Assembly: GCA_049968235.1 (NCBI GenBank)
Contig: JBMFRC010000005.1
Span: 96,001 to 160,000, forward strand
Reading direction: 5' to 3'
DNA length: 64,000 nt
Origin: Candidatus Hydrogenedens sp.
GTDB taxonomy: Bacteria; Hydrogenedentota; Hydrogenedentia; Hydrogenedentales; Hydrogenedentaceae
Part shown: positions 5,208 to 63,579 of the stretch, piece by piece
How the letters are laid out: every line of letters begins with the position of its first letter
Numbering within the stretch: position 1 is the first letter of the stretch
The notes under the pieces: generated by a model
Seen by the model: the letters and a program-made list of their open reading frames with translations, nothing else
Told to the model about the DNA's origin: nothing
The model's database searches: none
Position numbers and translations under genes: made by a program

Positions 5208-6054
5208 TCGTGCCCATAAGAAATCCAAATAAAGAGCCCATCAAGGTGCAATAAGGGAAATGTGCAGCGGTATAAATACGCGTATAAGCGTGTACACCTG
5301 CCCATGTTGCCAATGCCCCTTTTGCCCACTTTTTACGAATACCCCATATTGCGGGTGTTAGTAGTGCAAATAAGGAAGAAGCATGACCGGAAATATACGA
5401 AGGGGAACCTTTTACCACTTCATCTTTTATCACACGTACCTGTTTATTCCACGGTTCATATTTCTCGTGTAATGGACGCGGTCTACCGACAGTCTTTTTT
5501 ATATTATCTTCTCCCAGATAATTCGTGAAAAATACACTGATAATTGTTATCCAGAAAATTCGACTCCATCTTTTCCGCTCCAAATAATTCCATTTTTCCC
5601 ATGTCTTTGAACCAAACCAGAAAGCAAGGAATGAAACGATACTTAAAATAATAAAAACACTTCGATATTCATGAGGTCGCCACCAGAATATTCCATATGA
5701 TGAAATCCATAATCCACATAAATGATATATTCCTAAAACAACAGCAAAAACTTTCCACACATATCCTGCAACTTTTATAGCAGTATTATTTTTTCGAACA
5801 ATTAGATTTGTTATCTGCCAGGAAATTGCTGTGATAGAGAACAGGTACACAGAAAAATGGGTCAGAAAGACCATAACTTCATCCAGAATAGGGACATAAT
5901 GGTCAGGTTGTAATGCTAATAAAATCGCCTCATCAATCGGGTCATTAATCAACTTTGCACCCAAAAGAAATATTTCATACAGTATTAGATAACCAATAAC
6001 TACAATTATTAGAGAAAAAAATAACTTCAAAAAAATAGGTAAATCTCGATACAT
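5122..6054 (-). CDS. PAP2-family (acid phosphatase / lipid phosphatase) membrane protein
   Basis: PAP2 motifs: KxxxxxxRP ('KKTVGRPRP'), PSGH ('YISGHAS') and SRxxxxxH ('TRIYTAAHFP'), following an N-terminal multi-TM region. Confidence 0.65.
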   Translation of the reverse strand: MYRDLPIFLKLFFSLIIVVIGYLILYEIFLLGAKLINDPIDEAILLALQPDHYVPILDEVMVFLTHFSVYLFSITAISWQITNLIVRKNNTAIKVAGYVWKVFAVVLGIYHLCGLWISSYGIFWWRPHEYRSVFIILSIVSFLAFWFGSKTWEKWNYLERKRWSRIFWITIISVFFTNYLGEDNIKKTVGRPRPLHEKYEPWNKQVRVIKDEVVKGSPSYISGHASSLFALLTPAIWGIRKKWAKGALATWAGVHAYTRIYTAAHFPYCTLMGSLFGFLMGTITYWSFWWCLVPKEKTPPPAPSLNAKTV

Positions 6055-15110: not shown

Positions 15111-15140
15111 TTGATATGTTTATTTTTTTTTTGTTATAAT
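15111..15140 (+). promoter_or_regulatory. Sigma-70-like promoter TTGATA-18-TATAAT with a T10 tract in the spacer and extended -10 (TGtTATAAT)
   Basis: Read directly; lies upstream of the 15180 CDS. Confidence 0.35.
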
Positions 15141-15179: not shown

Positions 15180-15533
15180 ATGCTGGATGGCAGGTTATCA
15201 TCATGCATTAATCATCATTCTGTTTCTGCTGTTGCACGATGTAAACAGTGTGGGAAGCCTGTTTGTGGTGCATGTGTAATCACTTCCCCATTGGGTTCTT
15301 TTTGCTCCGATGCATGTCGGGAGCGATTTGAAGCCTTTACAAAACGGGTGCAGGAGTTGGACCGGGACACATCCCGTGCTCGCTGGAATATCGGAACAAA
15401 ATTAAGACAATTCTTCTCTTTTCTTCTCTTCGTTGTTGTTGTTTTAATTACTCTGGGTGTAATTGGGACTTTATTTAACATTCCTGTATTAACTCAAACT
15501 GTTTTTTTTGTTCGTTCGTGGTTGGGTATTTAA
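15180..15533 (+). CDS. Small Zn-ribbon protein with C-terminal TM anchor (start at MLDGRL; the longer ORF from 15111 is probably not used)
   Basis: 'CKQCGKPVCGAC...FCSDAC' Cys cluster; C-terminal hydrophobic helix; SD 'aaaggg' before the ATG at 15180. Confidence 0.5.
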   Translation: MLDGRLSSCINHHSVSAVARCKQCGKPVCGACVITSPLGSFCSDACRERFEAFTKRVQELDRDTSRARWNIGTKLRQFFSFLLFVVVVLITLGVIGTLFNIPVLTQTVFFVRSWLGI

Positions 15534-37251: not shown

Positions 37252-37293
37252 GGTTCACGCCATTAGAAAAATAGTAATAAAAATAGTATAATA

Positions 37294-37330
37294 GGGAAGA
37301 TAAATATAATGTTTATCTTCCCTATTTTAG
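37294..37330 (+). terminator. Rho-independent terminator after rpoC
   Basis: Perfect 11-bp stem GGGAAGATAAA / TTTATCTTCCC with a 7-nt loop, followed by 'tatttt'. Confidence 0.7.
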
Positions 37331-37544
37331 TATAATCAATATAAAGGGTATTGAGATGAAACATATAAAACCTATTTCTGCAAGAACAAAAGAACTGGAT
37401 TGGGGGCTAAATTCCGGCCTGGGTGGTATTATGGTCATTATTCAAGCAATAATTTCATTATTGAATGCTATCGGTTCGATAAAAGGAACAGGTTCAGAAA
37501 CAACGAACAATTAAAAAATTACATAACGAAAAGAGGAAAATTGT

Positions 37545-38495
37545 ATGTCTATCATATCATTTGTAACAATAGGAATCCTGTCCATAAGCGGAGTATTATT
37601 AGATGGTATTGTTGCCACAGTAGATAATGAACCTATACTTATGAGCGACCTGCGAGAGGAAATTGCCCCCTTCCTTGCTGACTTACAATCGCAGGGAGCC
37701 ACAGCCCAGCAAATACAGCAGGAGATGGAAAAAGCCCTTCAAAAGGCATTAGACCGTTATATCGAAAGACTTCTCCTCTATCGTAAAGCAGTCAACGAGG
37801 GATTGCAGGTAGATGAAAAAGAAATTGATGAGCGTGTTAACAAAATAAAAAAACGCTACGGCTCTCCGGAAGAATTTAATCGTCTTTTAGCAGAAAGCGG
37901 AGAGGTGATGAGTGAATTTCGTGAACGAATAAAACAACAACTTATTGCCCTTTCCTATGCTTTGAAAAAAAGAAAAGAATTTGAAAAAGAAATTACAATA
38001 TCCGAACCCGATATTGCCAAATACTACAACGAACATATTGAAGAATTTCAAAATCCGCAACGCATCAAGGTCCGCAGAATATTTCTATCCGCACCCAGAG
38101 AAGGGGAGGAACGGACAAAAGTAAAAGAATACATTTTAGAAATATTTGACCGTTTAAAACAGGGTGCGGATTTCGGCTCCATAGCTGAAAATGAATCTCA
38201 AGGTCCTGAAGCCGATAAATCTGGACTTATTGGCTGGGTATCCAGAGGTGATTTAGTTCCCGAATTAGAACAGGAAATCGAAAAAATGTCCGTTGGCGAA
38301 ATTAGCCAACCCATCGAGACCGAATGGGGTTTTCATATCCTGAAAGTAGAAGAAAAAGAAGACAGCGGGAAACTTTCCTACGAACAGGCTCGTATCATTA
38401 TCGAACCAAAACTCAAAGAACAATACATCAACGACCGTTATCAAAAATGGCTCAATGAAATAAAAAAAGGAGCCAATATCCGCATATTCATGTAA
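37545..38495 (+). CDS. Parvulin (PpiC)-type peptidyl-prolyl isomerase, SurA/PrsA-like
   Basis: N-terminal TM/signal anchor, a chaperone-like helical domain and the PpiC domain 'SGLIGWVSRGDLVPELEQEIEKMSVGEISQPIETEWGFHILKVEEK'. Confidence 0.75.
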   Translation: MSIISFVTIGILSISGVLLDGIVATVDNEPILMSDLREEIAPFLADLQSQGATAQQIQQEMEKALQKALDRYIERLLLYRKAVNEGLQVDEKEIDERVNKIKKRYGSPEEFNRLLAESGEVMSEFRERIKQQLIALSYALKKRKEFEKEITISEPDIAKYYNEHIEEFQNPQRIKVRRIFLSAPREGEERTKVKEYILEIFDRLKQGADFGSIAENESQGPEADKSGLIGWVSRGDLVPELEQEIEKMSVGEISQPIETEWGFHILKVEEKEDSGKLSYEQARIIIEPKLKEQYINDRYQKWLNEIKKGANIRIFM

Positions 38496-38750
38496 TAATG
38501 AAATGTATAAGCAATAAAAAAAGCACAGATTTCAATTTTCTTTAAACCTTCAATTATAATCTATATAACATTTTCTTCCAGTCGGATATTTCTCCCCTTC
38601 CAATTATCAGTATTTGATTCTTTTGGGATTAATTCTAAAACAAATTATATTAATAGCAATAATTTTTTAGGAACTAAACGAAATGAGAAGGTATTTATAT
38701 ATTAATAGTATTATTATAAAAATAATTATGAAATATTTTCTAAGAAAAGC

Positions 38751-38779
38751 TTGACAAATAATTTTTTTTTTTGTATAAT
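38751..38779 (+). promoter_or_regulatory. Consensus sigma-70 promoter TTGACA-17-TATAAT whose spacer contains a T11 homopolymer, upstream of the 38822 CDS
   Basis: Read directly. A strong SD 'aggaggt' lies 5 nt before ATG 38822. Confidence 0.55.
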
Positions 38780-38821
38780 TAAAATTATTAAATTTGAAAT
38801 TCAATAATAGGAGGTCCAATC

Positions 38822-40378
38822 ATGATTAAGCCATTCAAAAGAGCAACAACAAGATTCATTTTGACAGGCATATGCTTGTTAATTATTACAAGTTCTGTTT
38901 ATGGATTGAATACTGATTTTATTCAAAAAGTTAAGGAAACAGAAAAATTAGTTTACGCCGATGTGAATAACAACTACATAAAAGATGCCCTTCAGAAATT
39001 GATAGACCTGTTTCGTTCTATTCCTGAAAATGATATAGAAAGTGCGGATGCCCTATTAGGACCCCTTCATTTATATAGTTTCATTATAAGCGAGTTTTGT
39101 CGTCCGGAATTTTTATATAAGGAAAAATTATTACAGGAGTATCAATATCCTTCTGACAAGTTATTAATGGCGGTTGCTTATTTGAATAACTCTACTACCC
39201 GTGTAAATACGGCTGTCTCTATTATAAATTGTCTAAATGAGTTGAAGCAAGGAGATAATAGAACCATGACATTTTTAGCGGAGGTGATAGGTGTCTATGC
39301 CTTGACATCAGAAGAAAGTATGAGAATACAAAAAGGAATGGGTTCTGAATTAACAAAGGAGATAGATAAATTATTTATAAATCTTTTCTTTGAAAATTAT
39401 CCGACATTAACAGCCTCTCAATTTGTTTTACAGGACCTCTTAGATAGAGGAATTGAGAAAGTTATTTCCGAATATGGAATGTATAATGTGGATAAACTTG
39501 TGAAAACCTATATCGAAACTCCTGAAAAATTAAATTTATTGGCAGGATTTAATAACACCGATATATCTACTCAAAAACTTTACACGCATCTTTCAGGCTT
39601 TAACAAGGTAGCCAATGTCCTACCTTCTATGAATTTATTCGACATCAAAGAGCAGGTTCTTCATAAATGGGTGGAGATGTTGAGGGAAGAAAAAGATATA
39701 AACACACGATATACACTCATTACATTCTTAAAATGTGGAAGTATTCTAAACAAAGATTGTCAGGAACTTATAAAGACTGCTATCAAGGAAGCCAGCATGA
39801 AAAAAGAGTTAACACCGGATGTCCTATATGCAAAGATTACACTGTTAAAACTTGCTATGAAAAATTACTGGATAAAGGAAGCAGAAGAAATCTTGATGGA
39901 TATTTCTCAATTAGAATTGTTACCTCCTATTCACGGTATTCAAAGTGTTTATGCTCAGCAAAAAAGATTTATGGAAAGAGGAACGGAATATTTTGTTAGA
40001 CTGGGATATTACGACACTGCGAAGAAAGTATTAGAACTCCAATTAGCAAAATACCGCGATAGTCACTTTGAAATGGGGACCAGAACTAAATTGGAAAAGT
40101 TAGAAAAATATCCAGTTGATTATAGCATAGAGTTAATCAATTTAGATATGGTAAAGTCTGATATGAGAAGAAGACCCGAGTTAATTCGTAAATATCTTGA
40201 TGAAATTGTCAAATACACACCTAACCCTGACCTAAAAAACCTTCTTGCTAATCATAATGTAAATCAGCCTTTGAATTATTATACTAAAGACTATCCTATT
40301 ATAGTTCAAAGGTTAGGTCTGAAAAAATTTTTTGAAGAGAGGGGGATACCATACCCTCCCATCGGAACACAAAAATAA
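38822..40378 (+). CDS. Hypothetical secreted alpha-helical protein (first gene of the AT-rich block)
   Basis: Signal peptide 'ILTGICLLIITSSVYG'; 518 aa; no motif I recognise. Confidence 0.55.
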   Translation: MIKPFKRATTRFILTGICLLIITSSVYGLNTDFIQKVKETEKLVYADVNNNYIKDALQKLIDLFRSIPENDIESADALLGPLHLYSFIISEFCRPEFLYKEKLLQEYQYPSDKLLMAVAYLNNSTTRVNTAVSIINCLNELKQGDNRTMTFLAEVIGVYALTSEESMRIQKGMGSELTKEIDKLFINLFFENYPTLTASQFVLQDLLDRGIEKVISEYGMYNVDKLVKTYIETPEKLNLLAGFNNTDISTQKLYTHLSGFNKVANVLPSMNLFDIKEQVLHKWVEMLREEKDINTRYTLITFLKCGSILNKDCQELIKTAIKEASMKKELTPDVLYAKITLLKLAMKNYWIKEAEEILMDISQLELLPPIHGIQSVYAQQKRFMERGTEYFVRLGYYDTAKKVLELQLAKYRDSHFEMGTRTKLEKLEKYPVDYSIELINLDMVKSDMRRRPELIRKYLDEIVKYTPNPDLKNLLANHNVNQPLNYYTKDYPIIVQRLGLKKFFEERGIPYPPIGTQK

Positions 40379-40442
40379 ATTAATAAACAAGAGAGGAGGA
40401 CAAAATATGAAAAGGTTAATACTATATTCATCGGGCTATACT

Positions 40443-40475
<33 letters not shown>

Positions 40476-40542
40476 ACTTCTTTCCATAAGTATTCTGATT
40501 TCAGGTTGTCCACCCCAAAATCCACCTCAGGAGTTTCCTCAA

Positions 40543-42477
40543 GTGTGTAATTCTTGCTGTGATATAGAAAATTCCCTAAGTACTAATGCTTCTTGTGGTA
40601 TTTTTTGTGAAGAGGGAGAATTAGGCAATATTACAGTATACCCACAAAATTCTTGTTATTTAAAGGGAGAGAAAGTTCATGTATGGTTTGAAGGGACCAA
40701 TCCGGATTATGATTTTTGTAACTGGTTATCCGATCCCCCTGATATTTATTCTGCTAACAATCCTTTACCTTACACAGTGGTTCAGATAAAAGACCAACCC
40801 CAGTCGCTAATTGCGTTTTGCCAGAAAAATAAGGTAACACTTACAGTAGAGTGTGACTACGCTTCTTTTTTAATGCCTGGGAATAGATTAGAAGTTCCAT
40901 CCGGAGCAAATGTGGCATATACCATAGTTAGTGGAGAACAGGTCCCCTGGCGTTATACTATAGAATATCCAGTAGGTTCCTCAATTGAAGTTTCTGCGAT
41001 ACCTGCCGATGGTTATATAATAGACTGGAAGGGGAATAGTGCTTGTGTTGGGGGATGTAAAGGTATTAGATATTATCAAAATAGTATTAATGTTATGATG
41101 GTGGGTAGTGTCTATTTAAAGCCTTGTGCAACCCACATAAACGATTACGATTTTGATTTTCACACAATGACAATTAGTGCGGTTTATGGGGAGGGTATAT
41201 TGTTAAGTGGCGGATATAATTATTCTCAGGGTGGGTGCGATATACCTCTATTTCCATATGCTTCTGCTTTATCTTATGGCAGATTTCGTGTAGCAGTAGT
41301 TCCAGAATCATTTAAATCTCTAGCATACTGGTATTGCTCTACAGAAAATCTTTATTGCCCTTCTGAAGTAGCAGAAGCAGTTTTCCCAATAAATGGAAAT
41401 AGGACACATTCTGCTAACGCAGTTCTGGTTGATAAGGTTTTTTTAATTACTCCTGACCCATTAGGATTAAAGTACATAGACCATGTTCATTATTATGAAA
41501 ATAATATGGGAGGTATAGCAAAAATAATTACTCCACTTTTATATTCACCATCGAGTTTTGACCCATATCCTTTGGGGTGGAATCCTTTACCATACGGTTC
41601 TACCCATCCCAATGAATTCTGGTCGGTAGAAAATCTCTATGAGTGCCCAGAATGCAATGCGGTGGAACTTGAGCCCATTCCCTGTTTAGGTTCTGAATTC
41701 TTATATTGGGAAGTATCCCCTGATGGTGATGTTTGGATACCTGTCCCTCGCAATCCTATAAATCCAAATCTTACCGTATATATGAATTATTTTGGTTCAT
41801 TTGACCCCATCTACTATCCTGGCGATATACATATTCCCAATGGAGGTGTCACCCTCTATGTTCGACCGGTATTCAAATTGTCTTGTGACTTCGTTTGTGG
41901 ATATTGTTCCGGTCCTGATGGCCGTGATGTAATAATTGATATGTATGAAAATCCCGAGGTATTGTTGGGTGTTCAAATGTATCCTGGTCCAGCACCTGAT
42001 TGCAGTAAATATGTAACAAACCAACAGAACCATCCTGCTCACTATGAAAAAGAGGATTTATTACCATTTAATGTATTACAATGTCACCATGGAACTTTAA
42101 ATTATCCGCACGATGGTTGGGCGATAGAGGACGGGATAGCGGAGTGTTATGATGCAGTAGAGCAAGCATATTCGGGAACGATAAATGTAACATCTGTATA
42201 TCGTTGCCCGGTGAAGAATTCATCTGTTAATGGGAGTTTAACAAGCAAACATCTATTGGGCAAAGCATTTGACTTCGACCAACCAAGTTCAGAAGCCAAC
42301 TGGCGTGTAGCTAAAACAGCATATGAATGTAATAATAATAATGAGATATTATTGTATTATTATGAGAACGGTAATAAAAAATCAGTAAGTTTTTATAAAG
42401 TTTCAGATGAAAATGAAAAACCATGGGAAAAATACATCTTCGAACATGGACATGTTGGGATAGTTTCTGGAGATTAA
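40543..42477 (+). CDS. Cys-rich surface lipoprotein with C-terminal LAS/M15-type zinc peptidase-like domain. The biological start is probably ATG 40407, currently out of frame at the (TATC)8 repeat (phase-variable, OFF configuration).
   Basis: Lipobox 'ILISGC' is in frame just upstream (40492-40509) with no in-frame start between the stop at 40417 and GTG 40543. A strong SD/ATG at 40407 encodes 'MKRLILYSSGY...' but lies in the 0 frame. The C-terminal motifs 'SVYRCPVKNSSVNGSLTSKHLLGKAFDFD' ... 'EHGHVG' fit the M15/LAS zinc-ligand pattern. Confidence 0.6.
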   Translation: MCNSCCDIENSLSTNASCGIFCEEGELGNITVYPQNSCYLKGEKVHVWFEGTNPDYDFCNWLSDPPDIYSANNPLPYTVVQIKDQPQSLIAFCQKNKVTLTVECDYASFLMPGNRLEVPSGANVAYTIVSGEQVPWRYTIEYPVGSSIEVSAIPADGYIIDWKGNSACVGGCKGIRYYQNSINVMMVGSVYLKPCATHINDYDFDFHTMTISAVYGEGILLSGGYNYSQGGCDIPLFPYASALSYGRFRVAVVPESFKSLAYWYCSTENLYCPSEVAEAVFPINGNRTHSANAVLVDKVFLITPDPLGLKYIDHVHYYENNMGGIAKIITPLLYSPSSFDPYPLGWNPLPYGSTHPNEFWSVENLYECPECNAVELEPIPCLGSEFLYWEVSPDGDVWIPVPRNPINPNLTVYMNYFGSFDPIYYPGDIHIPNGGVTLYVRPVFKLSCDFVCGYCSGPDGRDVIIDMYENPEVLLGVQMYPGPAPDCSKYVTNQQNHPAHYEKEDLLPFNVLQCHHGTLNYPHDGWAIEDGIAECYDAVEQAYSGTINVTSVYRCPVKNSSVNGSLTSKHLLGKAFDFDQPSSEANWRVAKTAYECNNNNEILLYYYENGNKKSVSFYKVSDENEKPWEKYIFEHGHVGIVSGD

Positions 42478-42502: not shown

Positions 42503-43771
42503 ATGACAATTTATCTTAAAACAGGAAAAAAATTCACATTAATATGTTTTTTTATATTATGTATTGTGAAAAATGGATATTCGCAAACAGATATAATTGA
42601 AAGTAAAACGATAAATTGGGGAAAGATTTATTCTTTAGTAGTTATGGAAAGACTTCCTGAATTAGATGCAGAAAAAGAAAGAGAAATATTAGAAGAAACA
42701 GATAAAATTTTACATGAAACGAAGTCTCTTTATAAAGCCTGCAATTTTCTAATGAATGAGGTAGCAGAAAAAGATAGGAAGAGATACTTAATTGTTGGCA
42801 ATAAGAAAATAAAAGAAAAATTAGTGGAATTATTTAAGATGAGGATACAGTGTGAATTAAAAGAGGCAATTCAATCCGACTTGCAAGACAGTATTTTAAG
42901 TAGAAAAGATATTTCAGAAGAAGATAAGATGAGAGTGTTAGAGTCGATAAATAAAGAAAAAGAACTTATGAATAGTACTTTGAATTATTTAATAATGAGA
43001 GATGGTGATATGTGTTTAGATTGTTACATTCGTGATACAGAACTGAAAAAGTTGTTGACGCCCCCACCGGGACAGGAAGAAGAATTTGAACCTGAAGGAG
43101 TATATTATAACATAGAGGCTTTTTATTCAGTAGCTCTTAGTACCTTTGTTCCGGAGATGTATGATTATTTGTGGTTATCAAAATATGATGTAGAAGAGTT
43201 ACCTTATTATCCTTTATATTTTTATATACTTAAGGTCTATCCGAAAGAATTTCTTAATGATATATCCCATGGTTTTATAAGATACAAAGATGGGTATATA
43301 TACCGGAAAGAAGGAGAAGGTTTTCGATGGGAAGATGTGTTTAACATCGCAGGGTTACTAACAGAATATAATTCATCTTTTGTAGAGCAAGAAAAGGATA
43401 GAATTAAAACAATATTGGGAAAATACTTTGAAGATTTTATAGGCAATATAAGGAAGGAAAGAGAAGAACTATTCCTACAAATATCTAGTAATAATAAAAA
43501 AGAGGATAGGACTACTTGCAATAGCATGTTAACAGATACTTTTTTTAAAGAATTGAGACTACGAGAAAAGATGTTAGCGATTTATGAGCGAATAGGAGAG
43601 AAAGAGGATGTAGAGGATATAAAGAAGTTGGCAGAAGATATTCCTTTGGATTATCCGGTGTGGGAGAGCAATCGAGAAGGGGACGAAAAACTAAGAGAAA
43701 GATACCTACAACGGGTGAAGGAACTTCAAGACAGAGTGAAAGTATTGGTTGAGAAATTATCTCAACAATAG
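42503..43771 (+). CDS. Hypothetical secreted, highly charged coiled-coil protein
   Basis: Signal peptide ending 'GYSQ'; K/E-rich; 422 aa; SD 'aggagg' upstream. Confidence 0.55.
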   Translation: MTIYLKTGKKFTLICFFILCIVKNGYSQTDIIESKTINWGKIYSLVVMERLPELDAEKEREILEETDKILHETKSLYKACNFLMNEVAEKDRKRYLIVGNKKIKEKLVELFKMRIQCELKEAIQSDLQDSILSRKDISEEDKMRVLESINKEKELMNSTLNYLIMRDGDMCLDCYIRDTELKKLLTPPPGQEEEFEPEGVYYNIEAFYSVALSTFVPEMYDYLWLSKYDVEELPYYPLYFYILKVYPKEFLNDISHGFIRYKDGYIYRKEGEGFRWEDVFNIAGLLTEYNSSFVEQEKDRIKTILGKYFEDFIGNIRKEREELFLQISSNNKKEDRTTCNSMLTDTFFKELRLREKMLAIYERIGEKEDVEDIKKLAEDIPLDYPVWESNREGDEKLRERYLQRVKELQDRVKVLVEKLSQQ

Positions 43772-63323: not shown

Positions 63324-63579
63324 GAACGCATTCCCTTTCTTAAGGTTTAGAGATTACTTTTTACATATCTATGTTAAACCGTTATAATCCTTACTTCATA
63401 TTATTTACAAACTCAACGATTTTACATTTTTTTCATAACAAAATATGTTTATATAAATAACATAAGGCAATGAATTAATAAAAGTCAAATTCATGTTTTT
63501 AAAGGACTATAACGATATATTACAAGAATTCAAAGGTAGGAAGAAATATAGTAAATAGGTAGGAATGTTTAATTTATAT

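What the first reader, a model, noticed from the sequence alone, without database searches (positions are those of the whole stretch)
38751..38779. Perfect TTGACA-17-TATAAT promoter whose spacer is an 11-nt poly-T tract
The -35 and -10 hexamers are both exact consensus with a 17-bp spacer. Eleven of the 17 spacer nucleotides are a T homopolymer (38762-38772).
- Homopolymeric tracts of at least 9 nt slip at high frequency.
- A change of one nucleotide in spacer length (16 or 18) strongly reduces promoter strength, the mechanism used by Neisseria porA/opc and Haemophilus hif.
- This promoter drives the first gene of the AT-rich block, directly upstream of the repeat-containing lipoprotein gene.

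The block would therefore have two independent stochastic switches, one transcriptional and one translational.
Basis: partly seen in the sequence, partly recalled or inferred. Interest (0 to 1): 0.6.

Follow-up and report, generated by a model that had tools for sequence, protein, structure and literature searches.

The report
Conserved slippery poly-T promoter spacer
A textbook-perfect promoter whose spacing is set by a run of eleven T's sits before a three-gene exported-protein operon in an uncultured Hydrogenedens bacterium; related species keep the same run at different lengths, so it is most likely a replication-slippage dial for gene expression, a well-known kind of switch not previously reported in this phylum.

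Summary
TTGACA (38751-38756), a 17-nt spacer and TATAAT (38774-38779) form the only 12/12 promoter match in the 64 kb window (0.01 expected by chance). T11 (38762-38772) is the longest homopolymer in the window.

The window comes from a Candidatus Hydrogenedens MAG. The promoter lies 43 nt upstream of a three-gene operon of exported proteins:
- P1, an alpha-solenoid protein.
- P2, a lipoprotein with an M15 peptidase domain and a (TATC)n repeat in its signal peptide.
- P3, a coiled-coil protein.

- Every ortholog of P1 that I recovered has an invariant TTGACA.
- Six Hydrogenedens lineages have a pure T9-T14 run in the spacer, although the flanks are randomised.
- A GC-rich relative has G10 in the same place.
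- Tract length differs between near-identical assemblies in two species: T11/T11/T10 and T12/T10.
- Six of seven indels in about 30 kb of within-species alignments fall in this tract or in the TATC repeat.
- Lineages that lack P2 have only a stable T7.
- A control promoter with T10 elsewhere in the window does not keep its tract in orthologs.

The effect on transcription, the switching rate and the transcription start are inferred, not shown. This is a new member of a known kind (porA/opc/vlp-type spacer phase variation).

The parts
38751..38756 (+). -35 hexamer TTGACA
   Evidence: Exact consensus. It is invariant in all orthologous loci, including relatives with 22-24% protein identity and 58-61% GC.
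38757..38773 (+). 17-nt spacer aataa-T11-g
   Evidence: The spacer is 16 nt in L002, which has T10.
38762..38772 (+). T11 homopolymer, the putative slippage tract
   Evidence: It is the longest homopolymer in the window. Orthologs carry T9, T10, T12, T14 or G10 at the same place, and the length varies within species.
38774..38779 (+). -10 hexamer TATAAT
   Evidence: Exact consensus. Orthologs have TATAAT, TACAAT or TATTAT 16-18 nt from the -35 in their majority states.
38784..38787 (+). Predicted transcription start (A at 38784 or 38787)
   Evidence: Inferred from the usual 5-8 nt distance downstream of a -10 hexamer. It has not been mapped.
38809..38814 (+). Shine-Dalgarno AGGAGG of P1
   Evidence: Read directly from the sequence.
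38822..40378 (+). P1, a 518-aa exported all-alpha solenoid protein and first gene of the operon
40407..42477 (+). P2, a lipoprotein gene (lipobox LISGC, Cys codon 40507-40509) with a C-terminal Peptidase_M15_3 domain. It is out of frame in this window.
   Evidence: The ATG at 40407 is in another frame than the long ORF 40543-42477. With 7 repeat units (L001) it reads through as 688 aa.
40444..40475 (+). (TATC)8 repeat in the signal-peptide coding part of P2, the second (translational) switch
   Evidence: Found by TRF. It differs by one unit in all four within-species comparisons that cover it. Orthologs show a mix of ON and OFF frames.
42503..43771 (+). P3, a 422-aa exported coiled-coil protein and last gene of the operon
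   Evidence: ORF. It starts 25 nt after the P2 stop. An ortholog with 40% identity is present even in the lineage that lacks P2.

Best explanation
This is a strong sigma-70-type promoter whose -35 to -10 distance is set by a hypermutable T homopolymer.

Proposed mechanism:
- Slipped-strand mispairing during replication adds or removes T's.
- This moves the spacer away from or towards the 17-nt optimum.
- Transcription of the P1-P2-P3 operon is thereby raised or lowered heritably but reversibly in a fraction of cells.
- P2 translation is gated separately by the (TATC)n repeat in its signal-peptide region, giving a two-tier contingency operon for exported and surface proteins.

Shown:
- The sequence architecture.
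- Its conservation across Hydrogenedens lineages.
- Length polymorphism between near-identical genomes, concentrated in these two repeats.

Inferred:
- That RNA polymerase uses these hexamers.
- That tract length changes expression.
- That switching is fast enough to matter within populations.
For: (1) The promoter is a perfect TTGACA-17-TATAAT, with 0.01 expected per window. It is correctly placed 43 nt before P1.

(2) All orthologous loci keep TTGACA followed by a homopolymer:
- T11, T11 and T10 in this species (window, L001, L002).
- T14 and >=T13 (L003, L004).
- T10, again in a perfect TTGACA-17-TATAAT (L018).
- T9 (L005, L017).
- T12 (L019, L020).
- T12 and T10 (L021 clone vs L014).
- G10 in a relative with 58% GC (L010).

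(3) The 30 nt on either side are only 45-47% identical between the six long-tract lineages. About 38% is expected from their base composition alone. The tract nevertheless stays uninterrupted.

(4) Majority tract lengths place a good -10 hexamer at 16-18 nt.

(5) Within-species alignments show the following:
- Window vs L002: 9272 bp, 18 SNPs, and the only indel is 1 T of the tract.
- L021 vs L014: 6.4 kb, 32 SNPs, tract -2 T and TATC +1.
- Overall, 6 of 7 indels in about 30 kb lie in the two repeats.

(6) The lineage without P2 (L006, L007, L011, L012) has only T7, unchanged across three lineages that are 83-89% identical.

(7) Control: the other T10-spacer promoter in the window (15111-15140) has T7, T5 and T4 in orthologs and shows no variation among 5-6 samples.

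(8) Contig L004 starts exactly inside the tract. That is what a branch in an assembly graph would give if several tract lengths were present in that sample (this is inference).

(9) Repeats between -35 and -10 are an established route to phase variation through sigma-factor docking (PMC4081817).
Against: - No transcription start, expression data or read-level heterogeneity could be examined.
- The tract was identical in three within-species comparisons (T9, T12, and the T11 of L001) and changed only in the most diverged pairs. Its rate is therefore well below that of the TATC repeat. From my own knowledge, A/T runs slip less than G/C runs.
- T10 gives a 16-nt spacer, which normally still works, so the observed variant may change expression only modestly.
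- No terminator or stable structure separates the SurA-like gene from the promoter. Read-through could blunt any switch.
- T-rich spacers occur at another promoter of this genus, so part of the T-richness may be a general promoter preference.
- Slippage dynamics alone could help keep a tract pure without selection for switching.
- Promoter recognition in Hydrogenedentota has not been characterised.
Confidence: 0.65

Rival explanations
1. The tract is a static T-rich spacer. It is simply part of a strong constitutive promoter, either through a general preference for T-rich or rigid DNA just upstream of the -10 in this genus or through a DNA-shape contribution. Its length differences between strains would then be slow, near-neutral drift with no role as a switch.
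For: - The control promoter at 15111-15140 and its orthologs also have T runs (T10, T7, T5, T4) just before TGnTATAAT.
- T>=10 runs are not over-represented in the window.
- The tract is unchanged in several within-species pairs.
- The observed states mostly stay within 16-18 nt.
Against: - A shape or sequence preference does not explain G10 at the same position in L010.
- It does not explain why only this promoter keeps a pure run of >=9 in six lineages while the control does not.
- It does not explain why tract length tracks the presence of the repeat-bearing P2 gene.
- It does not explain the L014 state (T10, spacer 14) or the L010 state (spacer 15), which fall outside the working range.
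- The two repeats take 6 of 7 within-species indels.
Confidence: 0.22
2. The length differences are sequencing or assembly errors at a long homopolymer, so there is no real polymorphism.
For: - Homopolymers of 10-14 nt are error-prone on most platforms.
- All comparators are metagenome assemblies of unknown technology.
- Only two variant calls exist (L002, L014).
Against: - The same alignments contain no other homopolymer indels over 9.3 kb (window vs L002) and only one over 6.4 kb (L021 vs L014). These assemblies are therefore not generally homopolymer-noisy.
- The T10 control tract is identical between assemblies.
- The L014 difference is 2 nt.
- Differences between species (T9 to T14, G10) cannot be errors.
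- Even a consensus ambiguity would itself imply mixed lengths in the reads.
Confidence: 0.07
3. The T run belongs to something other than a spacer. Candidates are the T tail of an intrinsic terminator or attenuator for upstream transcription, a hairpin or cruciform that puts the -35 in a loop, or a start-site T run for UTP-sensing reiterative transcription from an AATAAT -10 at 38757-38762.
For: - A-rich runs precede the -35 in several lineages.
- C5 precedes and G10 follows the -35 in L010.
- AATAAT overlaps the start of the tract.
Against: - No G+C-rich stem precedes the tract, and no terminator is called there.
- RNA of 38490-38790 folds worse than shuffles (z = +1.16).
- DNA hairpins around the -35 are not better than shuffles (z between -1.5 and +0.7).
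- The alternative -10 has no -35 partner (TATTTT at 38734-38739).
- That alternative -10 is not conserved (aggacT and acttaT in L005 and L018), whereas TTGACA is invariant.
Confidence: 0.04

Closest known systems
Neisseria meningitidis porA (poly-G) and opc (poly-C) promoter-spacer phase variation (my own knowledge; the class is described in PMC4081817)
   Same: A homopolymer lies between the -35 and -10 of a sigma-70 promoter. Changes of one nucleotide alter the spacer length and hence transcription of a surface-protein gene. Expression is graded over three or so lengths.
   Different: - The tract here is T, not G or C.
- The host is an uncultured bacterium found in anaerobic-digester and activated-sludge metagenomes, not a host-restricted pathogen.
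- The promoter drives a three-gene operon.
- Nothing has been measured here.
Mycoplasma hyorhinis vlp lipoprotein genes (poly-A tract in the promoter spacer; my own knowledge)
   Same: An A/T homopolymer in the -35/-10 spacer controls lipoprotein expression. The tract is A/T-rich and long.
   Different: - vlp genes are a multigene family, each with its own tract, and also vary in size through coding repeats.
- Here a single operon has one promoter tract plus a frame-shifting tetranucleotide repeat in the second gene.
Helicobacter pylori sabA: promoter T tract acting as a rheostat (PMC4081817), plus a CT repeat in the 5' coding region (my own knowledge)
   Same: - A poly-T tract at the promoter is combined with a second, translational repeat at the same locus, giving two-tier control of a surface protein.
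- Tract length varies among strains.
- The same paper lists nine H. pylori loci with T or A tracts between -35 and -10.
   Different: - The sabA tract lies upstream of and adjacent to the -35. It works by changing the phasing of UP-like elements, not the hexamer spacing.
- Here the tract is inside the spacer, and the two repeats sit in different genes of one operon.
Haemophilus influenzae hifA/hifB fimbrial promoters ((TA)n in the spacer; my own knowledge)
   Same: The repeat number sets the -35/-10 spacing and switches transcription.
   Different: It is a dinucleotide repeat shared by two divergent promoters, and it changes in steps of 2 nt.

Membership tests
Promoter-spacer homopolymer phase variation (porA/opc/vlp type) | A homopolymer of about 9 nt or more lies between the -35 and -10 hexamers of the promoter of the regulated gene. 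| tested here: met
   T11 lies inside TTGACA-17-TATAAT, 43 nt before P1. The promoter is predicted from sequence, not mapped.
Promoter-spacer homopolymer phase variation (porA/opc/vlp type) | The tract length is polymorphic among otherwise near-identical genomes. | tested here: met
   T11 vs T10 at 0.2% divergence, where it is the only indel in 9.3 kb. T12 vs T10 at 0.6% divergence. There are only two events. Heterogeneity within one sample is not testable with these tools.
Promoter-spacer homopolymer phase variation (porA/opc/vlp type) | Transcription level depends on tract length. | not testable with these tools
   Only inferred from the known dependence of sigma-70 promoters on spacer length. 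Majority states give 16-18 nt, and outliers give 14 and 15 nt.
Promoter-spacer homopolymer phase variation (porA/opc/vlp type) | Switching is reversible and of high frequency (well above the base mutation rate) within a clonal population. | not testable with these tools
   Indirect evidence only. Indels are concentrated in the tract, and a contig starts inside the tract.
Sigma-70-type (-35/-10) promoter | TTGACA-like and TATAAT-like hexamers are separated by 17 +/- 1 nt and lie upstream of a gene. | tested here: met
   It is a 12/12 match with a 17-nt spacer. The -35 is invariant in orthologs. The other top-scoring sites in the window are also intergenic, and three of the four sit 40-60 nt before a gene.
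Sigma-70-type (-35/-10) promoter | The transcription start lies 5-9 nt downstream of the -10. | not testable with these tools
   No transcript data are available.
sabA-type rheostat T tract | The tract lies upstream of and adjacent to the -35 and changes the phasing of UP-like elements. | tested here: not met
   The tract lies downstream of the -35, inside the spacer. The definition is taken from PMC4081817.
Intrinsic terminator | A G+C-rich stem-loop is immediately followed by a T run. | tested here: not met
   No stem is called, and the fold of 38490-38790 is weaker than shuffles.
Coding-repeat translational phase variation (for the neighbouring P2 gene) | A repeat whose unit is not a multiple of 3 lies in the 5' coding region, and its copy number changes the reading frame among strains. 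| tested here: met
   (TATC)8 is out of frame in the window and (TATC)7 is in frame in L001. One-unit differences occur in four species, with a mix of ON and OFF frames.

The most novel reading that the evidence does not exclude
What is conserved in this spacer is mutability itself. Across a whole uncultured genus, the operon keeps an uninterrupted homopolymer between invariant promoter hexamers while everything around it is randomised. A GC-rich relative even swaps the base from T to G. Where the repeat-bearing lipoprotein gene is absent, the tract is short and stable. That would make this an anciently maintained two-tier contingency operon in bacteria known here only from anaerobic-digester and activated-sludge metagenomes. 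It would plausibly be driven by phage or antagonist pressure on an exported peptidoglycan-peptidase lipoprotein. It would also be a natural test case for selection on evolvability outside host-pathogen systems.
Probability: 0.45. Interest if true: 0.65.

Novelty: new member of a known kind. Interest (0 to 1): 0.5.

Why it matters
Repeat-driven phase variation has been described almost entirely in host-adapted pathogens and commensals. My literature searches found no report of it for Hydrogenedentes. They found no paper that combined contingency loci, simple sequence repeats and phase variation with metagenome-assembled genomes.

If this case is real, stochastic genetic switches also shape the surfaces of uncultured bacteria from anaerobic digesters and activated sludge.

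The conservation of the tract across species, including a T-to-G change of the repeated base, gives an unusually clean comparative argument that hypermutability is maintained by selection.

It also matters for annotation. NCBI annotates P2 from an internal GTG as a 644-aa protein. This hides the signal peptide, the lipobox and the switch.

Tried and rejected
- **Terminator or attenuator reading of the T run.** No stem is present, and the RNA fold of 38490-38790 is weaker than shuffles.
- **Hairpin or cruciform with the -35 in the loop.** I suggested this because of A runs, and C5/G10 in L010, flanking the -35. It is not better than shuffles.
- **Reiterative-transcription start in the T run from an AATAAT -10.** It has no -35 partner and is not conserved.
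- **Known RNA families.** There are no Rfam hits at gathering threshold and no tRNAs in the window.
- **Function of the regulated genes.**
  - P1 has no Pfam, NCBIfam or PHROG family, and PADLOC gives only one weak match (PDC-S15, E = 0.0023), which I do not count as evidence of defence.
  - P2 has no solved-structure relative by sequence.
  - The P2 model from a 3-sequence alignment failed (pLDDT 29.7), so no fold search was run.
- **Mobile island reading of the AT-rich block.** I rejected this because the order rpoC, small ORF, SurA-like gene, P1 is seen in four Hydrogenedens lineages, and in L006 the block runs straight on to an enolase-sized ORF.
- **The second T10 promoter (15111-15140) as a possible further switch.** Orthologs do not keep the tract and no variation was seen, so I used it as a negative control.

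Full report
**Observation**

Positions 38751-38779 read TTGACA-aataaTTTTTTTTTTTg-TATAAT.
- Both hexamers are exact consensus, the spacer is 17 nt, and T11 occupies 38762-38772.
- It is the only 12/12 match in the window on either strand. Dinucleotide-preserving shuffles give 0.01 such sites per 64 kb.
- T11 is the longest homopolymer in the window.
- Runs of ten or more T are not over-represented as such (3 matches, 3.8 expected). The tract alone would therefore be unremarkable.
- The site is intergenic. It lies 256 nt after the stop of a SurA-like PPIase gene (37545-38495) and 43 nt before an ATG at 38822 that follows AGGAGG.
- All four sites in the window with >=11/12 matches are intergenic. 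Three sit 40-60 nt upstream of a same-strand gene; for the fourth (63360-63388) the window ends before a gene is seen. Classical -35/-10 promoters therefore appear to be used here.

**Organism and genes**

Near-identical DNA is found in MAGs labelled Candidatus Hydrogenedens sp..

The gene order is rpoB, rpoC, a 52-aa ORF, the SurA-like gene, and then an AT-rich block (GC 0.31-0.36 against about 0.40 in the flanks) holding three tightly spaced genes, all of them exported.
- **P1 (38822-40378, 518 aa).** It has a signal or anchor helix and matches no family. A confident all-helical model (pLDDT 83.5) resembles only generic HEAT/TPR solenoids.
- **P2.** It starts at ATG 40407 and has a lipobox (LISGC, Cys codon 40507-40509). 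Its C-terminal domain is Peptidase_M15_3 and endolysin-like.
- **P3 (42503-43771).** It is a coiled-coil protein.

The gaps between the genes are 28 and 25 nt. No other good promoter is seen before P2 or P3, so the three genes most likely form one operon driven by this promoter.

The same order (rpoC, small ORF, SurA-like gene, P1) is seen in four Hydrogenedens lineages. In L006 the block is followed directly by an enolase-sized ORF. The block is therefore ancestral, not a recent island.

**Comparative test of the tract**

I recovered 20 orthologous loci through exact-protein look-ups and two collection scans. Upstream of every P1 ortholog there is an invariant TTGACA. In all but the most distant one (L009), a homopolymer follows it.

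| Lineage (loci) | Tract | Best -10 and spacer |
|---|---|---|
| This species (window, L001) | T11 | TATAAT at 17 |
| This species (L002) | T10 | TATAAT at 16 |
| L003 / L004 (74% protein identity) | T14 / >=T13 (contig starts in the tract) | TACAAT at 18 |
| L018 (49%) | T10 | TATAAT at 17, again a perfect promoter |
| L005 / L017 (61%) | T9 | TATTAT at 17 |
| L019 / L020 (46%) | T12 | TACAAT at 16 |
| L021 clone (L008, L013, L021-L023; 45%) | T12 | TACAAT at 16 |
| L014, a strain of that species | T10 | TACAAT at 14 |
| L006 / L012, L007, L011 | T7 | weak -10 (AATCAT, AATTAT or AATAAT) at 17 |
| L010 (24% identity, 58% GC) | G10 | TAAAAT at 15 |
| L009 | none | TAGTAT at 17 |

Among the six long-tract lineages, the 30 nt on either side are 45-47% identical. 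That is close to the roughly 38% expected from their base composition. The -35 and the purity of the tract are therefore what has been kept. A change of the repeated base from T to G argues that the conserved property is being a homopolymer, not a particular sequence.

**Polymorphism**

In within-species alignments, the two repeats of this operon take nearly all the indels.

| Pair | Aligned length | SNPs | Indels |
|---|---|---|---|
| Window vs L001 | 4031 bp | 0 | one TATC unit |
| Window vs L002 | 9272 bp | 18 | one T of the tract |
| L005 vs L017 | 2.8 kb | 8 | one TATC unit |
| L019 vs L020 | 7.4 kb | 2 | one TATC unit |
| L021 vs L014 | 6.4 kb | 32 | two T's of the tract, one TATC unit, one other single-base indel |

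That makes six of seven indels in about 30 kb. Because the same alignments are otherwise free of homopolymer indels, a general sequencing-error explanation is unlikely.

The T tract changed only in the two most diverged pairs, whereas TATC changed in every pair. The promoter tract is therefore clearly the slower of the two.

L021, L022, L023, L013 and L008 are 100% identical and count as one observation.

**Specificity controls**

- The only other long homopolymer in the window is T10 at 15123-15132. It also sits in a promoter spacer (TTGATA-18-TATAAT with a TGn extended -10), before a B-box zinc-finger gene.
  - Its orthologs have T7 (five samples, identical), T5 (six samples, identical) and T4. 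The T10 itself is unchanged in a second assembly.
  - T-rich spacers may therefore be a habit of this genus, but a long pure tract is kept only at the P1 promoter.
- In the fetched loci, runs of >=9 are almost exclusively this tract.
- The lineage with only T7 lacks P2 altogether: P1 is followed directly by a P3 ortholog with 40% identity. Long tracts therefore co-occur with the repeat-bearing lipoprotein gene.

**Second switch**

- (TATC)8 at 40444-40475 lies in the signal-peptide coding part of P2 and puts ATG 40407 out of frame with the long ORF 40543-42477.
- L001 has seven units and an intact 688-aa gene.
- Orthologs carry (TATC)4-6 or (TC)6 and show a mix of in-frame and out-of-frame states.

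**Mechanism, and what is not shown**

The best reading is spacer-length modulation by slipped-strand mispairing. This is the class described for repeats between -35 and -10, which affect sigma-factor docking (PMC4081817). From my own knowledge, porA, opc, vlp and hif are examples of it.

The following were not shown:
- the transcription start;
- any dependence of expression on tract length;
- heterogeneity within a population;
- the switching rate.

Three points temper the model:
- T10 gives a 16-nt spacer, which normally still functions, so a graded dial is more likely than a strict on/off switch.
- No terminator separates the SurA-like gene from the promoter, so read-through may give a floor of expression.
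- Alternative readings of the T run were tested and rejected. These were a terminator tail, a hairpin around the -35, and a reiterative-transcription start.

**Novelty**

The mechanism is well known. The host phylum, the deep conservation across species, the T-to-G replacement and the link to a second repeat in the same operon are new details.

My literature searches found nothing on phase variation in Hydrogenedentes. They found no paper combining contingency loci, simple sequence repeats and phase variation with metagenome-assembled genomes.

I rate it a new member of a known kind, of moderate interest. It is directly testable with public reads.

Noticed in passing
window 40407-40550, repeat at 40444-40475: (TATC)8 lies in the signal-peptide coding region of the lipoprotein gene P2 and puts the start codon out of frame. 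A near-identical assembly (L001) has 7 units and an intact 688-aa gene. Orthologs carry (TATC)4-6 or (TC)6 with mixed ON and OFF frames. The copy number differs by one unit in all four within-species comparisons that cover it.
   Followed up: yes
window 15111-15140 (T10 at 15123-15132): A second promoter-like site has a homopolymer spacer: TTGATA-18-TATAAT with a TGn extended -10. It lies upstream of a B-box zinc-finger gene (15180-15533), followed by a TPR-like gene and a SpoU methylase gene. Orthologs have only T7, T5 or T4, and no variation was seen. It looks like a species-specific expansion.
   Followed up: yes
L010 5929-5938 (with C5 at 5913-5917 and G6 at 5902-5907): A GC-rich Hydrogenedentota relative has G10 in the same spacer position, after TTGACAaatac. 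Its best -10 (TAAAAT) is only 15 nt away, which suggests a low-expression state. The C5 before the -35 could pair with either G run, but the predicted hairpin is not significantly better than shuffles.
   Followed up: partly
L006 5914-8585 (also L007, L011, L012): One Hydrogenedens lineage lacks the lipoprotein gene P2 entirely: a shorter P1 (447 aa) is followed directly by P3. It has only a stable T7 in the promoter spacer.
   Followed up: partly
window 40543-42477: NCBI annotates P2 from the internal GTG as a 644-aa 'D-Ala-D-Ala carboxypeptidase family metallohydrolase' (P0029). This misses the signal peptide and lipobox because of the repeat-induced frameshift.
   Followed up: partly
window 37290-37326 and 37357-37515: A 15-bp perfect hairpin followed by TTTTA lies just after rpoC and is probably its terminator. 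It is followed by a small ORF of about 52 codons that is also called between rpoC and the SurA-like gene in several Hydrogenedens loci.
   Followed up: no
L004 position 1: A Logan contig begins exactly with T13 of the orthologous tract. This is the pattern expected if the assembly graph branches there because reads with different tract lengths coexist in that sample.
   Followed up: no
L003 15018-15317, L019 8990-9319, L021 8892-9281: Other species carry an extra small (99-129 aa) stand-alone Peptidase_M15_3 gene after P3. It is absent from the window, where P3 is followed by a 270-nt gap and a membrane-protein gene.
   Followed up: no
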